Positions 3,895 through 44,651 of a stretch of DNA of 45,190 nucleotides are shown piece after piece. A model generated the notes under the pieces. The model saw nothing but the letters and a program-made list of their open reading frames with translations, made no database searches and was not told the origin of the DNA. Both the position numbers and the translations under genes were made by a program. Source of the stretch: a phage; sequence record PZ050807.1; one strand, 5' to 3'. Numbering within the stretch: position 1 is the stretch's first letter; each line of letters starts with the position of its first letter.

Positions 3895-3932
3895 TGGTTA
3901 ATATAGTGCAACCAAATACGGATTGCAACCAA
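3895..3932 (-). promoter_or_regulatory. Sigma70-type early promoter (minus strand): -35 TTGCAA, 17-nt spacer ending in ATTGGTTGCAC, -10 TATATT
   Basis: Read on the minus strand: TTGCAA(3928..3923)-17 nt-TATATT(3905..3900); two copies of the TTGGTTGCA motif. Confidence 0.55.
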
Positions 3933-5352: not shown

Positions 5353-5390
5353 CCCCCAATATAATGCAACCAATCTCGCAATGCAACCAA
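5353..5390 (-). promoter_or_regulatory. Sigma70-type early promoter (minus strand) of the TTGGTTGCA family
   Basis: Minus strand: TTGCAT(5386..5381)-17 nt-TATATT(5363..5358); two TTGGTTGCA copies. Confidence 0.55.
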
Positions 5391-8327: not shown

Positions 8328-8606
8328 TTATGCGACCAATTCCGCAACCAATAAATCAGCGTCGTGAATGTTGTCGATTACGCGAACGTCGGCCCCGCGC
8401 TTCGCCATGCGCTCATGTTCACGTACCTGGTGCGGCTTCGGCTTACCACCGGGGCGCTTCACTTCAACGAATACGACTCTGCCGTTGATGATGATAATCA
8501 GGTCGGGGGCGCCGGTACGCCCTTCCCATGCCATTTTACGGCAGAATCCACCTGCCTCTTTTACCTCTTTCATCAGGTGACTTTGCACCTTGCCTTCAGG
8601 AGTCAT
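8328..8606 (-). CDS. VRR-NUC domain nuclease
   Basis: PDLIIIINGRVVFVEVKRPGGKPKPHQ matches the VRR-NUC (PD-(D/E)XK) signature; TAATG overlap with the polymerase stop. Confidence 0.6.
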   Translation of the reverse strand: MTPEGKVQSHLMKEVKEAGGFCRKMAWEGRTGAPDLIIIINGRVVFVEVKRPGGKPKPHQVREHERMAKRGADVRVIDNIHDADLLVAELVA

Positions 8607-11117: not shown

Positions 11118-11891
11118 TTAGCGGCGTCGACGTTTACGTGGTGCTTCGTCTTCGTCATCGTCGTCATCTTCATCGCGTGACTTGCGACGTTTACGCGGCT
11201 TATCGTCTTCATCGTCGTCATCTTCATCACGGCGGCGCTTAGACTTGCGCGGTTTTTCATCTTCATCATCGTCGTCACGACGTTTTGACTTTTTGGATTT
11301 ACGCGGTGCTTCGTCTTCGTCATCATCCAGGTCGTCGTCAGAGCAATATGCACCGCCGCCGCCACCGAAGGAATCCCCATCATCACGGAAGCGCATACCC
11401 AGCAGACCACAGCCTAAGCCTTTGCCGTTGGTATTGTTCCAGGCCCAAATATCTAAGGAAACGTTGCAATAGCAACCGGAATAGATTTCCTTCCCTTCGA
11501 TTTCGTCGCCGTCGATGGTCAGACCCTGCTCCGTCTGCTTCTCGCCTTCGGAAGTCTGGATGATCGGCTGTTTGAATGATTTAGCGTTGATATACAGCTT
11601 ACCTTCAAACTCTTCCGTTACTTCTTCACGCTCATCTCCATCTCGAACGGCACATTCTTTCGAATCCTGCGCGTAGTGGCGGTCCATCCACTTATCGGCG
11701 TTCTTCTCAGACTTCAGTTTTTCGGTGAGCACTGCGCGTGCCGCCGCTTCCACTTTGTCCACCTGCGGATCTTCTTTATCAAGAATAATCACCGCACGAT
11801 ATGCCGGTTTTTGTCCATCCTGTTTAGGGGTATCACGCTCCCAAATTTTCAGGAAGCATACACGTACATTTTTCAGGTTGACTTTAGCCAT
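11118..11891 (-). CDS. Putative ssDNA-binding protein (gp2.5-like) with a long repetitive charged C-terminal tail
   Basis: N-terminus MAKVNLKNVRVCF resembles gp2.5-type SSBs; acidic C-terminus; start at ATG 11891 with RBS GAGGAA. Confidence 0.45.
   Translation of the reverse strand: MAKVNLKNVRVCFLKIWERDTPKQDGQKPAYRAVIILDKEDPQVDKVEAAARAVLTEKLKSEKNADKWMDRHYAQDSKECAVRDGDEREEVTEEFEGKLYINAKSFKQPIIQTSEGEKQTEQGLTIDGDEIEGKEIYSGCYCNVSLDIWAWNNTNGKGLGCGLLGMRFRDDGDSFGGGGGAYCSDDDLDDDEDEAPRKSKKSKRRDDDDEDEKPRKSKRRRDEDDDDEDDKPRKRRKSRDEDDDDDEDEAPRKRRRR
11121..11335. repeat. Imperfect tandem repeats of about 50 nt encoding (D/E)-rich/PRKSKRR peptide units
   Basis: Visible in both DNA and protein: DEAPRKSKKSKRRDDDDEDE / KPRKSKRRRDEDDDDED / DKPRKRRKSRDEDDDDDEDE / APRKRRRR. 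Confidence 0.5.
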
Positions 11892-11987
11892 TTTCCAATT
11901 CCTCATTTCACATGTATCGGGGTTATTAGAAGCCACCCCGTCCGGCTTGGTTGCTAATGTACTTGGTTGCGTTTCCGCGGTCAAGTG

Positions 11988-14678: not shown

Positions 14679-14708
14679 AATAATAGATTGGTTGCAGGAT
14701 GGGTGTCA
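14679..14708 (-). promoter_or_regulatory. Leftward early promoter: -35 TTGACA, 18-nt spacer containing GCAACCAAT, -10 TATTAT
   Basis: Minus strand: TTGACA(14708..14703)-18 nt-TATTAT(14684..14679). Confidence 0.55.
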
Positions 14709-14715
14709 ACAACTA

Positions 14716-14883: not shown

Positions 14884-15177
14884 ATGAATACGACTAAATT
14901 GAATGCTTTGTTAGATATGGTTGAGAATGGTGTTGATGTTGGTGCGGCCCGCGACGCTATTAACGTTGCGTTCAAAGACCTGGCCTACAAACTGGAATTA
15001 CTGAACGGTACGGCGGCGAGCAAGCTGCAAAAGCATAACGAAGAAATGGAAGAATACAAAAAGCAGGTTATCAGACTGCGCGAAGAGGGTAAGTCCTGGG
15101 CAATGATTGCCGAGCTAACAGGCATTAATCAAAGCACTGTACGCTCCTGGGTACGCAATGCTAAAACCGCTAAGTAA
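14884..15177 (+). CDS. Small HTH DNA-binding protein (putative transcriptional regulator)
   Basis: C-terminal helix-turn-helix SWAMIAELTGINQSTVRSWVRN; RBS AGGAGA. Confidence 0.55.
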   Translation: MNTTKLNALLDMVENGVDVGAARDAINVAFKDLAYKLELLNGTAASKLQKHNEEMEEYKKQVIRLREEGKSWAMIAELTGINQSTVRSWVRNAKTAK

Positions 15178-15189
15178 GGACTTGAGAAG

Positions 15190-17454
15190 ATGAGAAATAT
15201 AGAATTTGCGATCACACCCCCCGCTAAGAAAGGCGAATCTGCGGTAGCTCATAACCAGTCCATGACTACCGCCGAGTTTTTCGAATTTATCCAGGATGCA
15301 CCGGTAGTGTCGTCAGTTTGCATTAACGGTACTGAAGATAAAAAAGAATATGCGCGACGTAAGCGTAAAGGCGACGGCATTGTGGCTACAACCGCCGATG
15401 GCACGCGTAAAAAGACTGGCGTGGTTAGCCGCTCGATCCTGTTCTTCGACCTGGACCGTGCTGACAACCGCACACTTACCCGCTGCCGCAGGGCTTTCCG
15501 CAAGTCCGGCCTGGAATATGTCTACCACACCACCACCGGCGACCGCCACCCGTTGAAAGACGGCAAGCGCTGTGTGCGTTTCCTGGTGCTGACAAACAAG
15601 CCAGTTCCGGCGGAAGACTTGGGTCGCGCGCAGGCTGCACTGCTTGAGCAACTGGGTCTTACCGACGCGGGCTTTGATGACTGCTCGAAAGACACAAACC
15701 GCCTTATGTACCTGCCCCACCAGCAGGCTAAGGTCGAGTGTCATGAGGGTGAACGCGCTAACGTGCGTCGTCTGCTTCGCCTGGCTGACAAGATGGGTAT
15801 TGAGCAGGAAACGTTTCGCCGTGAACTGGTGCAGGGCGACGACGAGCAGATGAACGGCATCCTCGACTGGTGTTTCCAGGCTGGTTTTGAGCCGTTACCA
15901 TCCGGGCGCGGTTATGAAGTACCGTGCCCAAACGAACATCTGCACTCTGGTGAAGGGTCTACCGCTATCATGCTTAAGGATGGCGAGATTCGTTTCAAAT
16001 GTATGCACACCGGCAACGGATGCTGTTCTGAACTGAACAAACACCAACACCTGGCGCTGCGAATGATTGGTATCCCGGATATTTATAACGTGGAACCTCA
16101 CAACATGTCGCGCAAACAGATCTCGGCAATCCTGCCCGGACTGGACGATGAAGAAGTGGACGCGCAGTATGAGCACATGGTCGATCTGGTTGGCGAAGGT
16201 GAGGATTATGCGTCCTGTACTGACGCAGACCTGGAAGACGAACCAACGGCACTGTTCTCTAAACACGACCCGATCATCGAAGGTCTGATTAACTTCAAAT
16301 CGACCTGGTACGCAGCGGGTGAGTCGAACATTGGTAAATCCTTCTACATCCTGGGTCAGATGGCTGCCGTTGCCGCGGGCATCCCGTTCGGGGGCGCGAA
16401 GGTCGTCCAGTCGCATTGCTTCTACTTCGATGCGGAAGGTGGCGAGGCGTCCATCCAGCGTAAAGAAGCATTGCAGATTAAATATGAGCATGATCTTGAC
16501 AAGCTGCACATTGTTGACCTTCAGGCACGCGGCTGGGATATTACGAGCAAATCCGGCCTGCGTGAAGTAATCAGCTTTATCAACCGCACAGCGGATGGGG
16601 AACCGGTCGGCCTGGTGGCGTTCGACTCCCTTAACCAGACCGTGGCCCTGCGCTCGGCAGATGCCAAACCGTTCGACGAGAACAACGCAAGCGATATGGG
16701 TGAGATTGTCAAAGCGCTGAAGTCCATTGCGGAAAACACAGGAGGCAGTGCGGGCGTCATTCACCACCCGGCGAAGGGTGCAAACGGCAGCCGATCCCCG
16801 CGTGGGTCCGGTGCGCTACATGGCGCGGTGGATTCTGCATTCTTCCTGGAACAGCCAGACGAGAATCAGCCCGGACAGCTTAACCTGTATCATGAGAAAG
16901 CCCGTAACGGCGTAAAACAGGGTCCACGCGGCTTCGTACTACTTAAGTGCAAAGTGTCCATTAACGAGCGCAAGTCCGACACGTTCGAAGCGCACCAGTC
17001 CACTAACCCTGGTCCAGACTTCGGCGATGTGGTTGCCGGTTGGGACGTCAAGCCAATCCAGGCCACCCCGCGTGATGAGACTCTGTACCTTGTACCGGTA
17101 GCTCTGGCCCCGTTCGCTATCGAACAGGCGAAGGCCGCGGGCAAGCAGGCTGTTAAGGAAGAAAACCCCGCCGGTCCGCGCAATGAAAAAGAGAAAGTGC
17201 TTTACGCAGCGCTCGAAGCGTTGATGGAAGAGAATCCGGGACACCATGGCTTCAGCAAATCGGCAATCGTCCGCAAAGCCGGACTGGCGAAAGGTGGCAC
17301 ATCGACGAAGCCAATAGACGATATGCGTGAGCGCGGAATCATCGGCTTTTACAAAGACCCTGACACCGGGGCCATTTACGGGTCGTCGAATCTGGTTATC
17401 AATTCACAAATACCTATGCAATTGACGGCGACGGACGACGACCTTAAAGATTAA
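15190..17454 (+). CDS. DNA primase / replicative helicase fusion (primase-like N-terminal domain plus P-loop ATPase)
   Basis: Walker A GESNIGKSFYILG, Walker B LVAFDSLNQ; N-terminal primase-like region with Cys/His cluster (CPNEHLHSGEGS...CMHTGNGCC). Confidence 0.8.
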   Translation: MRNIEFAITPPAKKGESAVAHNQSMTTAEFFEFIQDAPVVSSVCINGTEDKKEYARRKRKGDGIVATTADGTRKKTGVVSRSILFFDLDRADNRTLTRCRRAFRKSGLEYVYHTTTGDRHPLKDGKRCVRFLVLTNKPVPAEDLGRAQAALLEQLGLTDAGFDDCSKDTNRLMYLPHQQAKVECHEGERANVRRLLRLADKMGIEQETFRRELVQGDDEQMNGILDWCFQAGFEPLPSGRGYEVPCPNEHLHSGEGSTAIMLKDGEIRFKCMHTGNGCCSELNKHQHLALRMIGIPDIYNVEPHNMSRKQISAILPGLDDEEVDAQYEHMVDLVGEGEDYASCTDADLEDEPTALFSKHDPIIEGLINFKSTWYAAGESNIGKSFYILGQMAAVAAGIPFGGAKVVQSHCFYFDAEGGEASIQRKEALQIKYEHDLDKLHIVDLQARGWDITSKSGLREVISFINRTADGEPVGLVAFDSLNQTVALRSADAKPFDENNASDMGEIVKALKSIAENTGGSAGVIHHPAKGANGSRSPRGSGALHGAVDSAFFLEQPDENQPGQLNLYHEKARNGVKQGPRGFVLLKCKVSINERKSDTFEAHQSTNPGPDFGDVVAGWDVKPIQATPRDETLYLVPVALAPFAIEQAKAAGKQAVKEENPAGPRNEKEKVLYAALEALMEENPGHHGFSKSAIVRKAGLAKGGTSTKPIDDMRERGIIGFYKDPDTGAIYGSSNLVINSQIPMQLTATDDDLKD

Positions 17455-17461
17455 AATTTGC

Positions 17462-17542
17462 GCGCATTGGTTGCCAATATGGTTAATTTGTGCGCGCATT
17501 GGTTGCCAGATTGGGCATTAAATCTATATCGCATTGGTTGCC
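17462..17542 (+). repeat. Three direct iterons GCGCATTGGTTGCC spaced about 35 bp apart (candidate origin or operator array)
   Basis: Repeat copies at 17462, 17494 and 17530, immediately after the primase-helicase stop. Confidence 0.6.
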
Positions 17543-17580
17543 GTGTAGTGCTAAATAAGTGAATAGTTATGCAAAATAAG

Positions 17581-17755
17581 TGCATAAAACAAACGGGACA
17601 AAAACGGGACAAACGACAAACGGGACAAAACGGGACGTCCCGCCGTCCCCCTCAGGAGTGGCGCGGGTTTGAGGCAAACGGGACAAGCGGGACAGACCAC
17701 AGTCTTTCAGACTAGACGGGGGGTATGGTCCCCCCTCCGTCTGAGACTGCATAAA
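17581..17755. repeat. Structured non-coding element A: ACGGGACA iterons, CGGGACGTCCCG palindrome and a long stem-loop; paralogue of 34104..34440
   Basis: Direct comparison with copy B: about 150 bp near-identical. Confidence 0.6.
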
Positions 17756-17907
17756 AGCTCTGGTTGCATAATCAACGGCAGCATAGTGAAAAATGCGGCG
17801 GGGGTAGATCTCGGCAACCAATGCGAGTTGAAGAGTGGAGAGTGAAAAATGCAGTTTGCAATTGCAACTCATAGCGATCAGCATTTTCATGCGCGTGATT
17901 AATATTG

Positions 17908-17936
17908 GTTGCACCCACCTTGGCACCTTGCTATAT
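17908..17936 (+). promoter_or_regulatory. Rightward promoter of the TTGGTTGCA family: -35 TTGCAC, 17 nt, -10 TATATT
   Basis: TTGCAC(17908..17913)-17 nt-TATATT(17931..17936). Confidence 0.5.
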
Positions 17937-17965
17937 TGGCTGCACACCATCATGAGGACTGAACA

Positions 17966-18292
17966 ATGAAAAAATTAATCTGGGTTTACGCGTTGGCGGT
18001 GGCTAAGGAGCAAGAAGCGGCAGCGTATATCACCCCGTGCAGTTATGCAGTCGAACGCTTGGAAGCGGCCCAGGCCGTTGTCCGGGTGATGAAGCGCGCA
18101 ATCATCGGTAGGCTGGAGGACCGATTCGACACGATGGCAGAGATCCAGCCACTGGCGAACGCAATCCAGGACTACGCGCTTGCATTTGCCCGTGAACGCC
18201 TGGCATACCGGTTTGGTATCGGGGAAACGGCAGTGGCTAACATCGCCCGCATTCAGGCCCAGCGTGAGCTGCACGCCATACTCGCGAAATAA
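17966..18292 (+). CDS. Hypothetical protein, 108 aa
   Basis: ORF downstream of the promoter. Confidence 0.5.
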   Translation: MKKLIWVYALAVAKEQEAAAYITPCSYAVERLEAAQAVVRVMKRAIIGRLEDRFDTMAEIQPLANAIQDYALAFARERLAYRFGIGETAVANIARIQAQRELHAILAK

Positions 18293-18571
18293 GTGGCCAA
18301 AATGACACGCAGACGCGCTCAATGGCTTTCATGGCACATTCCCCTACATAGCATCCGTTTATGGGCGCAGAACGCGATTGAGGGCGATTCTGTGTTCTGG
18401 AGCTATCTGGATGACGTCAAGCCGCTGACGCAGACCAGAAAGCTGCACCAGTTCATGAACGAACACGGACTGCCGGTGAAAACGTCATTGCAACCAATCG
18501 GCATCCGTATTACATTACGCCGTAAGCCAATCGTTGAGCAGGTTGGCAAACACAGGAGACTGACAAAATGA
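18293..18571 (+). CDS. Hypothetical protein, about 90 aa
   Basis: ORF; start is GTG 18293 or ATG 18302. Confidence 0.4.
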   Translation: MAKMTRRRAQWLSWHIPLHSIRLWAQNAIEGDSVFWSYLDDVKPLTQTRKLHQFMNEHGLPVKTSLQPIGIRITLRRKPIVEQVGKHRRLTK

Positions 18572-21118: not shown

Positions 21119-21203
21119 TGCTTGACCTGCAACCAATTAATAGCTCATACTTCTGTCGCCGTGGTATATTGATCGCGGTCAAACTGAATCAGGAAAATAT
21201 ACG

Positions 21204-28449: not shown

Positions 28450-28479
28450 TGTTGTTTCCTCGTTTGTTGGTGTGCAACC

Positions 28480-28508
28480 AATATATTGCAACCAATTAGC
28501 CAATGCAA
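28480..28508 (-). promoter_or_regulatory. Early-type promoter (minus strand): -35 TTGCAT, 17 nt with ATTGGTTGCAA, -10 TATATT
   Basis: Minus strand: TTGCAT(28508..28503)-17 nt-TATATT(28485..28480). Confidence 0.5.
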
Positions 28509-33775: not shown

Positions 33776-34089
33776 TTGAGGCGGCGCGACGCTTCTATGG
33801 TCCGCCGCCACCGTCCGAAGACCTTGCCGCTAGTTTATGGGGTGCGGCCCCCGAAGATATTTGTCCGCCAGTTGCATTATGGCCTGATAACGTACAGGTC
33901 GTTGCCGTTTTCACTGACTGCTCAACGCAGTGGCGCACCGGTTTTAACGGAGCATACGGCATCGACTACGGCGTGCTGGAATGGCTATTTAAAATGCACG
34001 GCATCGAAAATGAGAAGCGAGCTTTTAAAGATATCAAGTTAATGGAGCGTATTGCACTCGACGAAATTGCAGCACAACAGGCCGGGTAA
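33766..34089 (+). CDS. Tail assembly chaperone extension (gpT-like), expressed as a G-T fusion by -1 programmed frameshift at A_AAA_AAC
   Basis: Heptamer A AAA AAC at 33766..33772; the -1 frame is open from 33766 to the TAA at 34087..34089. Confidence 0.5.
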   Translation, partial: KKLIEAARRFYGPPPPSEDLAASLWGAAPEDICPPVALWPDNVQVVAVFTDCSTQWRTGFNGAYGIDYGVLEWLFKMHGIENEKRAFKDIKLMERIALDEIAAQQAG

Positions 34090-34103
34090 TTCCGGCCTTT
34101 TTC
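34080..34103 (+). terminator. Intrinsic terminator after the GT chaperone ORF
   Basis: GGCCGG-GTAATT-CCGGCC followed by TTTTT. Confidence 0.6.
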
Positions 34104-34106
34104 ATA

Positions 34107-34430
34107 GCGGGACAGCGGGACGTCCCGTTTTTGTCCCGCTGTCCCGCCCCGCCAAAAACTGCATACCTATTCAGAAATACTGCATAAAACCAAAACGGGA
34201 CAAAAACGGGACAAGCAGGACGTCCCGCCTCAAAAGTGCATATCTATGCAGTTTTCATGCATAAAACGAACGGGACAAAAACGGGACAAACTGCAAGCGG
34301 GACAGAGCGGGACGTCCCGCCGTCCCTGCCAGAGCTGCCGCGGGTTTCAGCCGATCGGGACAGGCGGGACAAAGCCAAGTCTTTCAGACTAGACGGGGGT
34401 CAATGGCCCCCTCCGTCTGAGACTGAATAA
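34107..34430. repeat. Structured non-coding element B: GGGAC/GTCCC iterons, palindromes and a conserved stem-loop; paralogue of 17581..17755
   Basis: Several ACGGGACA iterons, three GGGACGTCCC palindromes, 13-bp inverted repeat GCGGGACAGCGGG/CCCGCTGTCCCGC, hairpin at 34378..34425. Confidence 0.6.
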
Positions 34431-34492
34431 GGTTGGTTGCAAAATGACTGATACAATACAAACGGCAACTTGCATAAAAAGGGGACTGCATA

Positions 34493-44599: not shown

Positions 44600-44628
44600 A
44601 ATATAGTGCAACCAATACGTGATTGCAA
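44600..44628 (-). promoter_or_regulatory. Early-type promoter (minus strand): -35 TTGCAA, 17 nt with ATTGGTTGCAC, -10 TATATT
   Basis: Minus strand: TTGCAA(44628..44623)-17 nt-TATATT(44605..44600). Confidence 0.55.
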
Positions 44629-44651
44629 CCAATTTATGAGGAGTTTTCGCT

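What the first reader, a model, noticed from the sequence alone, without database searches (positions are those of the whole stretch)
17462..17542. Tri-iteron array GCGCATTGGTTGCC immediately after the primase-helicase gene
Three direct copies of a 14-mer are spaced about 35 bp apart (17462, 17494, 17530), starting 8 bp after the primase-helicase stop. Their core TTGGTTGCC is a one-base variant of the TTGGTTGCA motif found in the early promoters. This suggests one DNA-binding factor recognises both promoters and this array (origin iterons or an operator bank).
Basis: seen in the sequence. Interest (0 to 1): 0.65.

Follow-up and report, generated by a model that had tools for sequence, protein, structure and literature searches.

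The report
Conserved binding-site array after primase-helicase
Just after the primase-helicase gene of this E. coli phage (genus Dhillonvirus) lies a real, strongly conserved cluster of short protein-binding boxes that share their core with boxes inside nearly every promoter of the phage, so it is a genuine control element, but whether it starts DNA replication or controls transcription cannot be settled from sequence alone.

Summary
GCGCATTGGTTGCC is exact at 17462 and 17494. The third copy starts at 17529 and matches 13/14. Spacing is 32 and 35 bp.

The window is a Dhillonvirus. In 24 distinct relatives the 13-mer CGYATTGGTTGCC is almost invariant in 84 copies. Copy number varies from 1 to 4. 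The last spacing is always 35 bp, and the inverted copy lies 279-281 bp downstream.

The core TTGGTTGC occurs 21 times in the window against 2.45 expected. Eighteen of these fall in the 7.5% of the window that is non-coding, mostly inside sigma-70 promoter cores. A distant genus (Edwardsiella phage eiAU) has the same box at promoters and 7-8 copies after its helicase-primase gene.

The array opens a 511-bp non-coding region that GenBank already annotates as "region B" in Sodalis phage SO-1. This region also holds an AT-rich tract, CGGGACA iterons and a conserved hairpin, and part of it is duplicated upstream of the tape-measure gene.

Best reading (0.4): a bank of sites for the lineage's unidentified promoter-box protein, acting as insulator or auxiliary operator at the early/late boundary. 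Main rival (0.3): true origin iterons. The suggested HTH binder is disfavoured. It is a new member of a known kind, of moderate interest.

The parts
17462..17475 (+). Array copy 1, GCGCATTGGTTGCC (exact)
   Evidence: It is part of a 26-nt unit at 17451-17476 that includes the gene's stop codon.
17494..17507 (+). Array copy 2, GCGCATTGGTTGCC (exact), 32 bp after copy 1
   Evidence: In most relatives this spacing is 54 bp.
17529..17542 (+). Array copy 3, TCGCATTGGTTGCC (13/14), 35 bp after copy 2. This is the most conserved copy.
   Evidence: The 35-bp spacing to the preceding copy holds in all 23 relatives that have at least 2 copies.
17813..17826 (-). Fourth, inverted copy (TCGCATTGGTTGCC on the minus strand). 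It forms a perfect 15-bp inverted repeat with copy 3 and brackets the 268-bp module between them.
   Evidence: I3. It lies 279-281 bp after the last direct copy in 22 of 23 relatives.
17540..17600 (.). AT-rich tract (GC 0.325) containing the palindrome TTATGCA (17567-17573) - N7 - TGCATAA (17581-17587)
   Evidence: The sequence GAATAGTTATGCA is conserved in all relatives, including L032.
17590..17700 (.). CGGGACA iterons: CGGGAC at 17594, 17605, 17621, 17631, 17679 and 17688, an inverted GTCCCG at 17637, and the GGGACGTCCC palindrome. Spacing is 10-11 bp.
   Evidence: (D2). Of the 40 CGGGAC/GTCCCG hexamers in the window, 22 lie in regions A and B.
17700..17749 (.). Conserved hairpin/cruciform element CAGTCTTTCAGACTAGACGGGGGG-loop-CCCCCCTCCGTCTGAGACTG
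   Evidence: The stems are invariant and the loop is variable in 24 distinct sequences, including the region A copy at 34378.
17905..17944 (+). Promoter of the downstream operon (gp50 through the lysis genes). Box TTGGTTGCA lies at 17905-17913, the -35 TTGCAC at 17909-17914, a 17-bp spacer follows, the -10 TATATT is at 17932-17937, and a second box TTGGCTGCA is at 17936-17944.
   Evidence: It is conserved in all relatives. It falls below the threshold of the generic scan.
15190..17454 (+). Primase-helicase gene: RepA-like AAA_25 helicase core, a diverged C-terminal domain and an acidic tail ATDDDLKD
14688..14696 (+). Single TTGGTTGCA box in the divergent promoter region of the HTH/primase-helicase operon. 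It also lies in the spacer of the minus-strand promoter at 14709-14680.
34257..34445 (+). Region A paralogue of the module at 17580-17772 (84% identity over 195 bp). It is preceded by an intrinsic terminator (34079-34098) rather than by an array.
   Evidence: It corresponds to the SO-1 annotation 'region A'.

Best explanation
The array is a bank of three direct sites plus one inverted site for a sequence-specific DNA-binding protein. The same, still unidentified, protein of this phage lineage reads the TTGGTTGC box inside almost all of the phage's sigma-70 promoters.

Shown: the sites are real and under strong purifying selection. They share their core with the promoter boxes. They are non-coding and promoter-less. 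They bracket a 268-bp origin-like module at the border between the early replication operon and the next operon.

Inferred: occupancy of the bank acts on transcription rather than as the initiator-binding core of the origin. It would work as a protein roadblock or insulator that keeps RNA polymerase leaving the primase-helicase gene (which has no intrinsic terminator) out of the module. It could also serve as auxiliary operators that cooperate by looping with the boxes in the promoter at 17905-17944. On this reading the clade-specific CGGGACA repeats next door are the better candidates for initiator iterons.
For: 1. Constraint. CGYATTGGTTGCC is near-invariant in 84 copies from 24 distinct phages while the spacers diverge. 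The 35-bp spacing of the last pair and the 279-281-bp distance to the inverted copy are fixed.

2. Same box as the promoters. There are 21 TTGGTTGC against 2.45 expected, and 18 of 21 are non-coding. In six promoters the -35 hexamer lies at offset +4 of a box, and all have a second box between -35 and the transcription start region: just upstream of the -10 in four, overlapping it at 17909, just downstream at 28508. Three promoters of the TTGAC type carry an inverted box in the spacer: 14709-14680, 11984-11956 and 21122-21151. Boxes in either orientation inside promoter cores fit a DNA-binding regulator, not an RNA-polymerase recognition element.

3. The box set is conserved at homologous places in SO-1 and in the distant genus Eiauvirus, which has 23 against 1.3 expected. 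The tandem promoter form occurs almost only in Dhillonvirus-like contigs among 2.9 million viral contigs. A 34%-identity relative, CP088689, lacks it.

4. The array copies have no credible -10 element and there is no plus-strand terminator after the gene. The paralogous module in region A is preceded by a strong intrinsic terminator at the equivalent place (34079-34098).

5. A second iteron family (CGGGACA) with 10-11-bp phasing is shared by regions A and B. It co-occurs with the gp47-type HTH.

6. The 49% clade keeps TTGGTTGC at promoters but has a different array, TTGCGAGT x8, after the helicase gene.
Against: No binding protein is identified and no experiment exists.

The array hugs, or starts inside, the 3' end of the helicase-primase gene in three clades. 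In eiAU it is the only iteron-like array in that region. Both facts fit origin iterons at least as well.

The orientation of the sites flips in L032 and eiAU, which argues against an orientation-dependent roadblock of the mycobacteriophage L5 stoperator type.

The array copies carry systematic flanks that promoter boxes in this genus lack (CGYA on the 5' side and C at position 9). An additional or different reader is therefore possible.

Natural variation of 1-4 copies shows that the upstream copies are dispensable.

The parallel with the terminator before region A is only an analogy.
Confidence: 0.4

Rival explanations
1. The boxes are true replication-origin iterons. The replication initiator, most plausibly the primase-helicase itself through a DNA-binding domain, binds the 3+1 boxes, melts the adjacent AT-rich tract and loads itself. 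The same protein bound at promoter boxes then feeds back on transcription, a dual role like that of DnaA or SV40 T-antigen.
For: The array lies immediately 3' of, or inside the end of, the helicase-primase gene in Dhillonvirus, L032 and eiAU. An AT-rich minimum of GC 0.325 follows directly. Copy number and orientation vary as iterons do. No separate initiator gene is recognisable, and the helicase-primase is the only initiation-type protein shared by all four clades. In eiAU, TTGGTTGC is the only multi-copy repeat in the region. A box sits in the promoter of the helicase-primase operon, the pattern expected for autoregulation. The SO-1 GenBank record flags the region as a special repeat region. 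From general knowledge, an origin next to the primase/helicase gene is established for SaPI pri-rep-ori and for Streptococcus thermophilus phages.
Against: Classical iterons are confined to the origin and the rep promoter. Here the box sits in about a dozen promoter cores. A second, better-phased iteron family (CGGGACA) lies next door and is duplicated in region A. The 49% clade has TTGCGAGT repeats at this position instead. The C-terminal domain of the helicase-primase is strongly diverged between clades that share the box. No DNA-binding domain could be demonstrated, because the AF2 model had pLDDT 49. There are no DnaA boxes in the region.
Confidence: 0.3
2. The copies are weak sigma-70 promoters, with -35 = TTGCCx at offset +4 of each box. 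Their transcripts would prime or activate the neighbouring origin, as at the T7 or T4 origins, or would yield a small RNA covering the module.
For: The register of TTGCCA/TTGCCG within the box is the same as in bona fide promoters. Copy 2 has TTGCCA-16-TATATC and copy 3 has TTGCCG-18-AATAGT, and the AATAGT is conserved. The replisome is T7-like in composition, with a gp2.5-like SSB and a family A polymerase.
Against: The generic scan finds no promoter in 17300-18100. The -10-like sequences of copies 1 and 2 are not conserved in relatives. In L032 the boxes are inverted yet GAATAGTTATGCA is still conserved, so that conservation belongs to the TTATGCA-N7-TGCATAA palindrome. No Rfam family matches. 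The hairpin stems show no covariation.
Confidence: 0.08
3. The array is a packaging (pac/cos) recognition site, a set of repeats bound by the small terminase subunit.
For: Three GenBank records (PTXU06, WFI, 22664B1) have their linear ends inside region B, near window position 17861. Terminase small subunits typically bind arrays of direct repeats (general knowledge).
Against: Those ends lie about 320 bp downstream of the array. PhageTerm placed a 5' cos site (ATCTTAAGGG) elsewhere in EE09 (PMC10673088), and that decamer is absent from region B. Headful packaging was predicted for Opt-212 (PMC9022532). The terminase genes lie about 5 kb away. The same box occurs at a dozen promoters.
Confidence: 0.04
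4. The repeats are functionless products of tandem duplication of the gene's 3' end, or they are part of a coding or read-through extension.
For: The unit includes the last 9 nt of the gene (AAAGATTAA) and is 54 bp long in most relatives. The frame after the stop codon is open for 85 codons in most relatives.
Against: The 13-mer is invariant while the rest of the unit diverges, and an inverted copy is kept at a fixed distance. The open frame is broken in the window (35 codons), in Ioannina (19) and in L019 (23). The minus-strand ORF has no Pfam or PHROG match. The same box cluster exists in a different genus with a different arrangement.
Confidence: 0.03

Closest known systems
'Region B' repeat_region annotated in the Sodalis phage SO-1 genome (NC_013600, 40178-40657), with paralogous 'region A' (11214-11597)
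   Same: It is the orthologous locus. It occupies the same position after the helicase-primase gene, is 80% identical over 488 bp, has the same boxes, CGGGAC repeats and hairpin, and shows the same A/B paralogy.
   Different: The record gives only a descriptive note ('direct, inverted and palindromic repeat sequences ... possible ...', truncated in the tool output). I found no paper describing it, its boxes or the link to the promoters. SO-1 has 2 direct copies and the window has 3.
Origin iterons placed beside the initiator/helicase gene: lambda ori, P4 ori/crr, SaPI pri-rep-ori, IncQ RSF1010 oriV with its RepA helicase (general knowledge)
   Same: Short direct repeats of variable number lie next to an AT-rich tract and a GC-rich/hairpin segment, adjacent to the replicative helicase-primase gene. 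The helicase core is RepA/AAA_25-like (a weak hit to RSF1010 RepA structure 1g8y). A second, distant copy of part of the region recalls P4 ori/crr.
   Different: The box is not confined to the origin; it lies in most promoters of the genome. No initiator or binding has been shown. Another iteron family is present in the same region.
Global regulators with dispersed operators plus a special cluster: DnaA boxes (oriC plus many promoters), RK2 KorB OB sites, SV40 T-antigen sites (general knowledge)
   Same: One short recognition sequence is used both inside promoter cores across the genome and as a cluster at a replication-associated locus.
   Different: This is purely an analogy. The phage is virulent, with no match among plasmids or E. 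coli genomes, so a partition role is unlikely. The reader protein is unknown.
Mycobacteriophage L5 'stoperators' (asymmetric gp71 sites at the early promoter and in intergenic regions; general knowledge)
   Same: An asymmetric box of 9-13 bp overlaps the -35 of promoters and also occurs as promoter-less intergenic copies that could block elongating polymerase.
   Different: Stoperators act in one orientation relative to transcription and belong to a lysogenic repressor. Here the orientation flips between clades, and the phage has no lysogeny module.
Tripartite operators with distal auxiliary sites: lambda OL/OR, coliphage 186 FL/FR (general knowledge)
   Same: Three adjacent sites plus further sites lie 85-440 bp from a regulated promoter that itself carries two boxes.
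   Different: The boxes are asymmetric direct repeats rather than dyad-symmetric operators. The three array sites do not themselves overlap a promoter.

Membership tests
Replication-origin iterons | Several copies of one short sequence clustered in a non-coding stretch | tested here: met
   3 direct copies plus 1 inverted copy within 365 bp. Relatives have 1-4 direct copies.
Replication-origin iterons | Adjacent AT-rich DNA-unwinding region | tested here: met
   GC is 0.325 at 17540-17600, directly after copy 3.
Replication-origin iterons | Specific binding by the cognate initiator protein | not testable with these tools
   No initiator is identified. The AF2 model of the helicase-primase C-terminal domain was unusable (pLDDT 49).
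Replication-origin iterons | The fragment supports or initiates replication | not testable with these tools
   This needs an ori-cloning assay or marker-frequency analysis. GC skew only mirrors gene orientation.
Replication-origin iterons | The sequence is essentially confined to the origin, apart from the rep promoter | tested here: not met
   The same core lies in about a dozen promoter cores across the genome.
Operator sites of a phage transcription regulator | The recognition sequence overlaps promoter core elements | tested here: inconclusive
   Met for the box family in general. The three array copies themselves overlap no credible promoter.
Operator sites of a phage transcription regulator | An identified cognate DNA-binding regulator | tested here: not met
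   The only HTH nearby (14884-15177) is replaced by an unrelated XRE-type HTH in clades that keep the box. No other DNA-binding domain was found in conserved small proteins.
L5-type stoperators | Sites oriented consistently with the direction of transcription | tested here: not met
   The sites are co-oriented in Dhillonvirus but inverted in L032 and mostly inverted in eiAU.
Sigma-70 promoters | -35 and -10 hexamers at 16-18 bp spacing, conserved in relatives | tested here: not met
   The scan gives no hit in 17300-18100. The -10-like sequences are weak and not conserved.
pac/cos packaging site | Virion DNA termini at or near the site; proximity to the terminase genes | tested here: inconclusive
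   Three records end about 320 bp downstream of the array, but published PhageTerm results place cos elsewhere or predict headful packaging. The terminase genes are about 5 kb away.
SO-1 'region B' repeat region (orthology) | Homologous sequence in the same genomic position | tested here: met
   80% identity over 488 bp, between the helicase-primase gene and the gp50 homologue.
Known structured RNA families | Match to an Rfam covariance model | tested here: not met
   No match at E <= 1 in 17000-18400.

The most novel reading that the evidence does not exclude
One conserved phage protein, most economically the primase-helicase itself, reads the TTGGTTGC box both as origin iterons and as an operator inside nearly every promoter. 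A virulent siphovirus would then couple replication initiation to a genome-wide transcription switch, in the manner of SV40 T-antigen or DnaA. The 3+1 array would be the origin-proximal, high-affinity nucleation site.
Probability: 0.15. Interest if true: 0.75.

Novelty: new member of a known kind. Interest (0 to 1): 0.4.

Why it matters
Dhillonviruses (HK578-like phages, several of them in the BASEL collection) are common E. coli phages. As far as I could find, their origin of replication, promoters and temporal regulation have never been described.

This work defines three things. The first is a genus-wide 9-bp promoter box with a fixed promoter architecture. The second is a conserved 13-bp variant of that box clustered at the helicase-primase gene. 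The third is an origin-like module that is duplicated elsewhere in the genome.

Together these give precise, testable handles for finding the regulator or initiator, for mapping the origin, and for engineering these phages. A cloned array might, for example, act as a decoy that titrates an essential factor. The element itself belongs to a familiar class, the iteron or operator array.

Tried and rejected
- **Rfam scan of 17000-18400:** nothing found.
- **DnaA boxes:** none in region B.
- **GC skew:** the minimum near 14.5 kb only mirrors the switch in gene orientation.
- **Structure of the helicase-primase C-terminal domain:** A homologue search with the 150-aa domain returned one fragment. The single-sequence AF2 model had pLDDT 49, so no fold search was run.
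- **PDB sequence search:** only a weak match to RSF1010 RepA.
- **Literature:** no paper on the box, on region A/B or on a Dhillonvirus origin. The HK578 OLD-escaper preprint only confirms that the HTH and helicase-primase genes form a replication-initiation operon.
- **Scan of bacterial genomes with a loose two-box pattern:** only scattered, apparently chance matches.
- **Plasmid and E. coli genome searches with the region:** no match.
- **RNA pairing between copy 3 and the inverted copy:** the flanks vary independently, with no compensatory changes (by inspection).
- **Coding potential of the region:** rejected.
- **cos decamer of EE09:** not present in the region.
- **Phylogenetic profiling for the reader protein:** using the box-less relative CP088689 left only gp27, gp31, gp35, gp46, Dam and the diverged helicase-primase as candidates. 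This is not decisive.

Full report
**What the window is.** The region 17000-18400 matches 163 phage records, almost all Dhillonvirus (HK578/SO-1-like E. coli siphoviruses). The closest are LM40P1 and Ioannina at about 91%. I transferred a gene map from SO-1 proteins. Genes between about 2.8 and 14.7 kb are on the minus strand: polymerase, gp2.5-like SSB, exonuclease and a second helicase. At 14884 a plus-strand operon begins with a 97-aa HTH protein followed by the 754-aa primase-helicase (15190-17454; AAA_25/RepA-like core). A 511-bp non-coding gap follows (17455-17965). After it come small genes, the lysis genes, the terminase genes and the structural genes.

**Checking the observation.** GCGCATTGGTTGCC is exact at 17462 and 17494. 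A 13/14 copy lies at 17529-17542, and a fourth 13/14 copy lies on the minus strand at 17813-17826 (4 matches against 0.76 expected). Spacings are 32 and 35 bp. The unit is about 26 nt and includes the stop codon context. Copy 3 and the inverted copy form a perfect 15-bp inverted repeat 268 bp apart. The core TTGGTTGC occurs 21 times against 2.45 expected, and no shuffle out of 100 reached that. Eighteen of the 21 lie in the 7.5% of the window that is non-coding (P about 6e-18).

**Conservation in relatives.** I read the orthologous region from GenBank and IMG/VR relatives. In 24 distinct phages, CGYATTGGTTGCC is nearly invariant in 84 copies (C 79/84, G 84/84, Y 84/84, A 81/84, TTGGTTGCC 84/84 among those counted). 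The flanking and spacer sequence diverges. The number of direct copies is 2 in 10 phages, 3 in 12 and 4 in one. In Sloth-like L028, two copies carry TTGGTCGCC. A relative with 98% primase-helicase identity has only 2 copies (L019). The spacing of the last pair is always 35 bp. The upstream unit is 54 bp in most phages: the gene's last 9 nt, the box and a 20-bp palindrome GATATGGGAATTCCCATATC. In the window's subclade the corresponding spacing is 32 bp. The inverted copy lies 279-281 bp downstream in 22 of 23 phages. The region is not coding. The frame after the stop codon is open for 85 codons in most relatives but is broken in the window, Ioannina and L019. The annotated ORFs are inconsistent between records and match no family.

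**The box elsewhere in the genome.** The other TTGGTTGC copies mostly sit in promoter cores.

- One promoter class reads ATTGGTTGCA-N8-ATTGGTTGCAyTATATT. The -35 hexamer (TTGCAA/T) starts at offset +4 of the first box, the spacer is 17 bp, and the second box abuts the -10. These promoters lie at 3928-3900, about 5386, about 8347, 17909-17937, about 28508 and 44628-44600.
- A second class has a TTGAC-type -35 and an inverted box in the spacer. These are 14709-14680 (gp46; 11/12 match), 11984-11956 (SSB) and 21122-21151 (gp58).
- A single box overlaps the predicted promoter of the HTH/primase-helicase operon (14688).

SO-1 has 21 boxes at homologous positions, including C-type boxes at promoters. 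Boxes in both orientations inside promoter cores point to a DNA-binding regulator, probably repressive, rather than a polymerase recognition element. That last step is inference. The tandem form occurs in only 15 stretches of 2.9 million viral contigs, almost all Dhillonvirus-sized contigs. The phage DNA has no match among plasmids or E. coli genomes.

**More distant relatives.**

- L032 (69% primase-helicase identity) has one C-type box inside the gene's 3' end and two inverted boxes 16 bp apart. The same TTATGCA / CGGGACA / hairpin module follows.
- Edwardsiella phage eiAU (genus Eiauvirus, 42% identity) has 23 boxes against 1.3 expected. Seven or eight cluster within 290 bp at or after its helicase-primase stop codon, mostly in the opposite orientation. 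Its promoters also carry tandem boxes.
- A 49%-identity clade (L035 and others) has a different repeat, TTGCGAGT x8, after the gene but keeps TTGGTTGC at promoter-like places.
- A 34%-identity relative recorded as the E. coli 'plasmid' CP088689 has neither the gap nor the box.

The box and its clustering beside the helicase-primase gene are therefore older than the genus. Orientation, number and spacing are free to vary.

In eiAU and in the L035 clade it is replaced by an unrelated XRE-type HTH, yet both keep the box. It is therefore an unlikely reader. The gp47-type HTH co-occurs with the CGGGACA module, which makes that module its more plausible target; this rests on only two clades per state and is inference. 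The primase-helicase is the only initiation-type protein shared by all box-bearing clades. Its C-terminal roughly 110 residues have a helix/strand pattern and align across clades, but they are strongly diverged. I could not obtain a usable model. Other conserved small proteins show no DNA-binding domain.

**The surroundings.** The gap 17455-17965 is orthologous to the 'region B' repeat_region in the SO-1 GenBank record, which is noted there as similar to a 'region A' upstream of the tape-measure gene. In the window, 17580-17772 is 84% identical to 34257-34445. Within-genome A/B identity (84%) slightly exceeds cross-genome identity (79-81%). Region B, read from left to right, contains:

1. the three boxes;
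2. an AT-rich tract (GC 0.325) with the palindrome TTATGCA-N7-TGCATAA;
3. CGGGACA repeats at 10-11-bp spacing and a GGGACGTCCC palindrome, with 22 of the window's 40 CGGGAC/GTCCCG hexamers lying in regions A and B;
4. a GC-rich hairpin/cruciform element with invariant stems and a variable loop;
5. the inverted box;
6. the promoter at 17905-17944.

No plus-strand intrinsic terminator follows the primase-helicase gene. Region A is preceded by a strong terminator at 34079-34098. There is no DnaA box and no Rfam match.

**Interpretation.** The sequence of iterons, then an AT-rich tract, then a GC-rich hairpin segment, next to the helicase-primase gene, makes region B the best candidate for the origin. 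That is inference; I put it at roughly 55-60%.

For the box array itself, two readings remain. I slightly prefer the first: a bank of sites for the promoter-box protein that acts on transcription, either as an insulator or roadblock at the unterminated end of the early operon, or as auxiliary operators for the 17905 promoter (0.4). My reasons are that the box is overwhelmingly a promoter-core element, that a second clade-specific and well-phased iteron family sits next door, and that the array occupies the place a terminator holds in region A.

The main rival is true origin iterons read by the initiator, which would then also act at promoters (0.3). It is favoured by the constant association with the helicase-primase gene and by eiAU, where the box is the only repeat in the region.

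Weak promoters or primer transcripts (0.08), a packaging site (0.04) and neutral duplication or coding (0.03) are poorly supported. On packaging, three records end about 320 bp downstream of the array, but PhageTerm results place cos elsewhere or predict headful packaging.

**Comparison with known systems and novelty.** The region as a repeat cluster is already flagged in a GenBank annotation. I found no publication on it, on the box or on a Dhillonvirus origin. In kind it is an iteron or operator array. The closest functional analogies are origin iterons beside rep/helicase genes, and global regulators whose box is used at both promoters and a replication locus (DnaA, KorB, T-antigen). It fails one defining feature of classical iterons, confinement to the origin. 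It also fails one defining feature of L5 stoperators, fixed orientation. I rate it a new member of a known kind with moderate interest (0.4): real, conserved and a good experimental handle, but not surprising in principle.

Noticed in passing
17580-17772 and 34257-34445: A roughly 190-bp non-coding module is present twice in the genome at 84% identity: after the primase-helicase gene and upstream of the tape-measure gene. It holds CGGGACA repeats, a GGGACGTCCC palindrome, a conserved hairpin and TGCATAAAA. These are SO-1 'region B' and 'region A'. Within-genome identity slightly exceeds cross-genome identity, which hints at concerted evolution. It could represent two origins, or an origin plus enhancer as in P4 ori/crr.
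   Followed up: partly
17700-17749 and 34377-34424: The hairpin/cruciform element CAGTCTTTCAGACTAGACGGGGG-loop-CCCCCTC(C)GTCTGAGACTG has invariant stems and a variable loop in 24 distinct sequences. No U-tract follows on either strand, so it is not an intrinsic terminator. It is a candidate single-strand initiation or primase-loading signal.
   Followed up: partly
3900-3932, 5366-5390, 8338-8351, 28474-28508, 44600-44632 (minus strand); 17905-17944 (plus strand): A genus-wide promoter architecture: ATTGGTTGCA-N8-ATTGGTTGCAyTATATT. The -35 hexamer lies at offset +4 of the first box and the second box abuts the -10. Box spacing varies from 13 to 17 bp (31 bp at 17905), which suggests independent monomer sites.
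   Followed up: yes
14680-14709 (-), 11956-11984 (-), 21122-21151 (+): Three TTGAC-type promoters (gp46, SSB, gp58) carry the box in inverted orientation inside the spacer. This is the arrangement expected for repression.
   Followed up: partly
18490-18497 (minus strand, inside the gp51 homologue): A TTGGTTGCA box lies antisense within a coding region and is conserved at the homologous place in SO-1 (41332, minus strand). It may mark an internal or antisense regulatory site.
   Followed up: no
about 17861 (inside region B): GenBank records of phages PTXU06, WFI and 22664B1 have their linear ends at this point of the region. Whether it is an assembly breakpoint or a physical terminus is unknown. 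Published PhageTerm results for other dhillonviruses disagree (cos elsewhere versus headful).
   Followed up: partly
17567-17587; also 34170-34260 and 34470-34490: The palindrome TTATGCA-N7-TGCATAA and repeated TGCATAA(AA) words form a third motif family in regions A and B. It looks like a classical dimeric operator.
   Followed up: no
14884-15177 versus relatives L032, L035 and eiAU: The small HTH gene upstream of the primase-helicase is of two unrelated types. The sigma-r4/HTH_23-like type occurs in Dhillonvirus and L032, which have CGGGACA repeats. The XRE-like type occurs in eiAU and the L035 clade, which do not. This suggests the HTH protein reads the clade-specific repeats.
   Followed up: partly
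17431-17451 (C-terminus of the primase-helicase): The acidic tail ATDDDLKD is conserved across four clades. It resembles the acidic C-terminal tails of T7 gp4 and gp2.5 that contact the polymerase. In L032 and L035 the codons just before it (ELVA) spell a TTGGTTGC box.
   Followed up: no
relatives L003, L005, L006, L008 and others (no equivalent in the window): The 54-bp repeat unit of most relatives contains a perfect 20-bp palindrome, GATATGGGAATTCCCATATC, between boxes. The window's 32-bp spacing looks like a 22-bp deletion of it.
   Followed up: no
17774-17785 and orthologous places in L032, L035 and eiAU: The short element ACGGCAGCA is conserved downstream of the repeat module in all four clades, even where everything around it differs.
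   Followed up: no
locus L179 (CP088689.1): A 44-kb circular 'plasmid' of an E. coli blood isolate is a siphovirus-like genome. It shares the replication module (helicase-primase 34%, polymerase 61%, gp58 73%) but has only one TTGGTTGC and no gap after the helicase gene. It is recorded as a plasmid, possibly a phage-plasmid or a carrier-state phage.
   Followed up: partly
L035 5532-5711: In the 49% clade a small ribbon-helix-helix-like ORF (judged by eye from the sequence) is inserted in the corresponding non-coding region. Its 3' end overlaps a palindromic pair of TTGGTTGC boxes.
   Followed up: no
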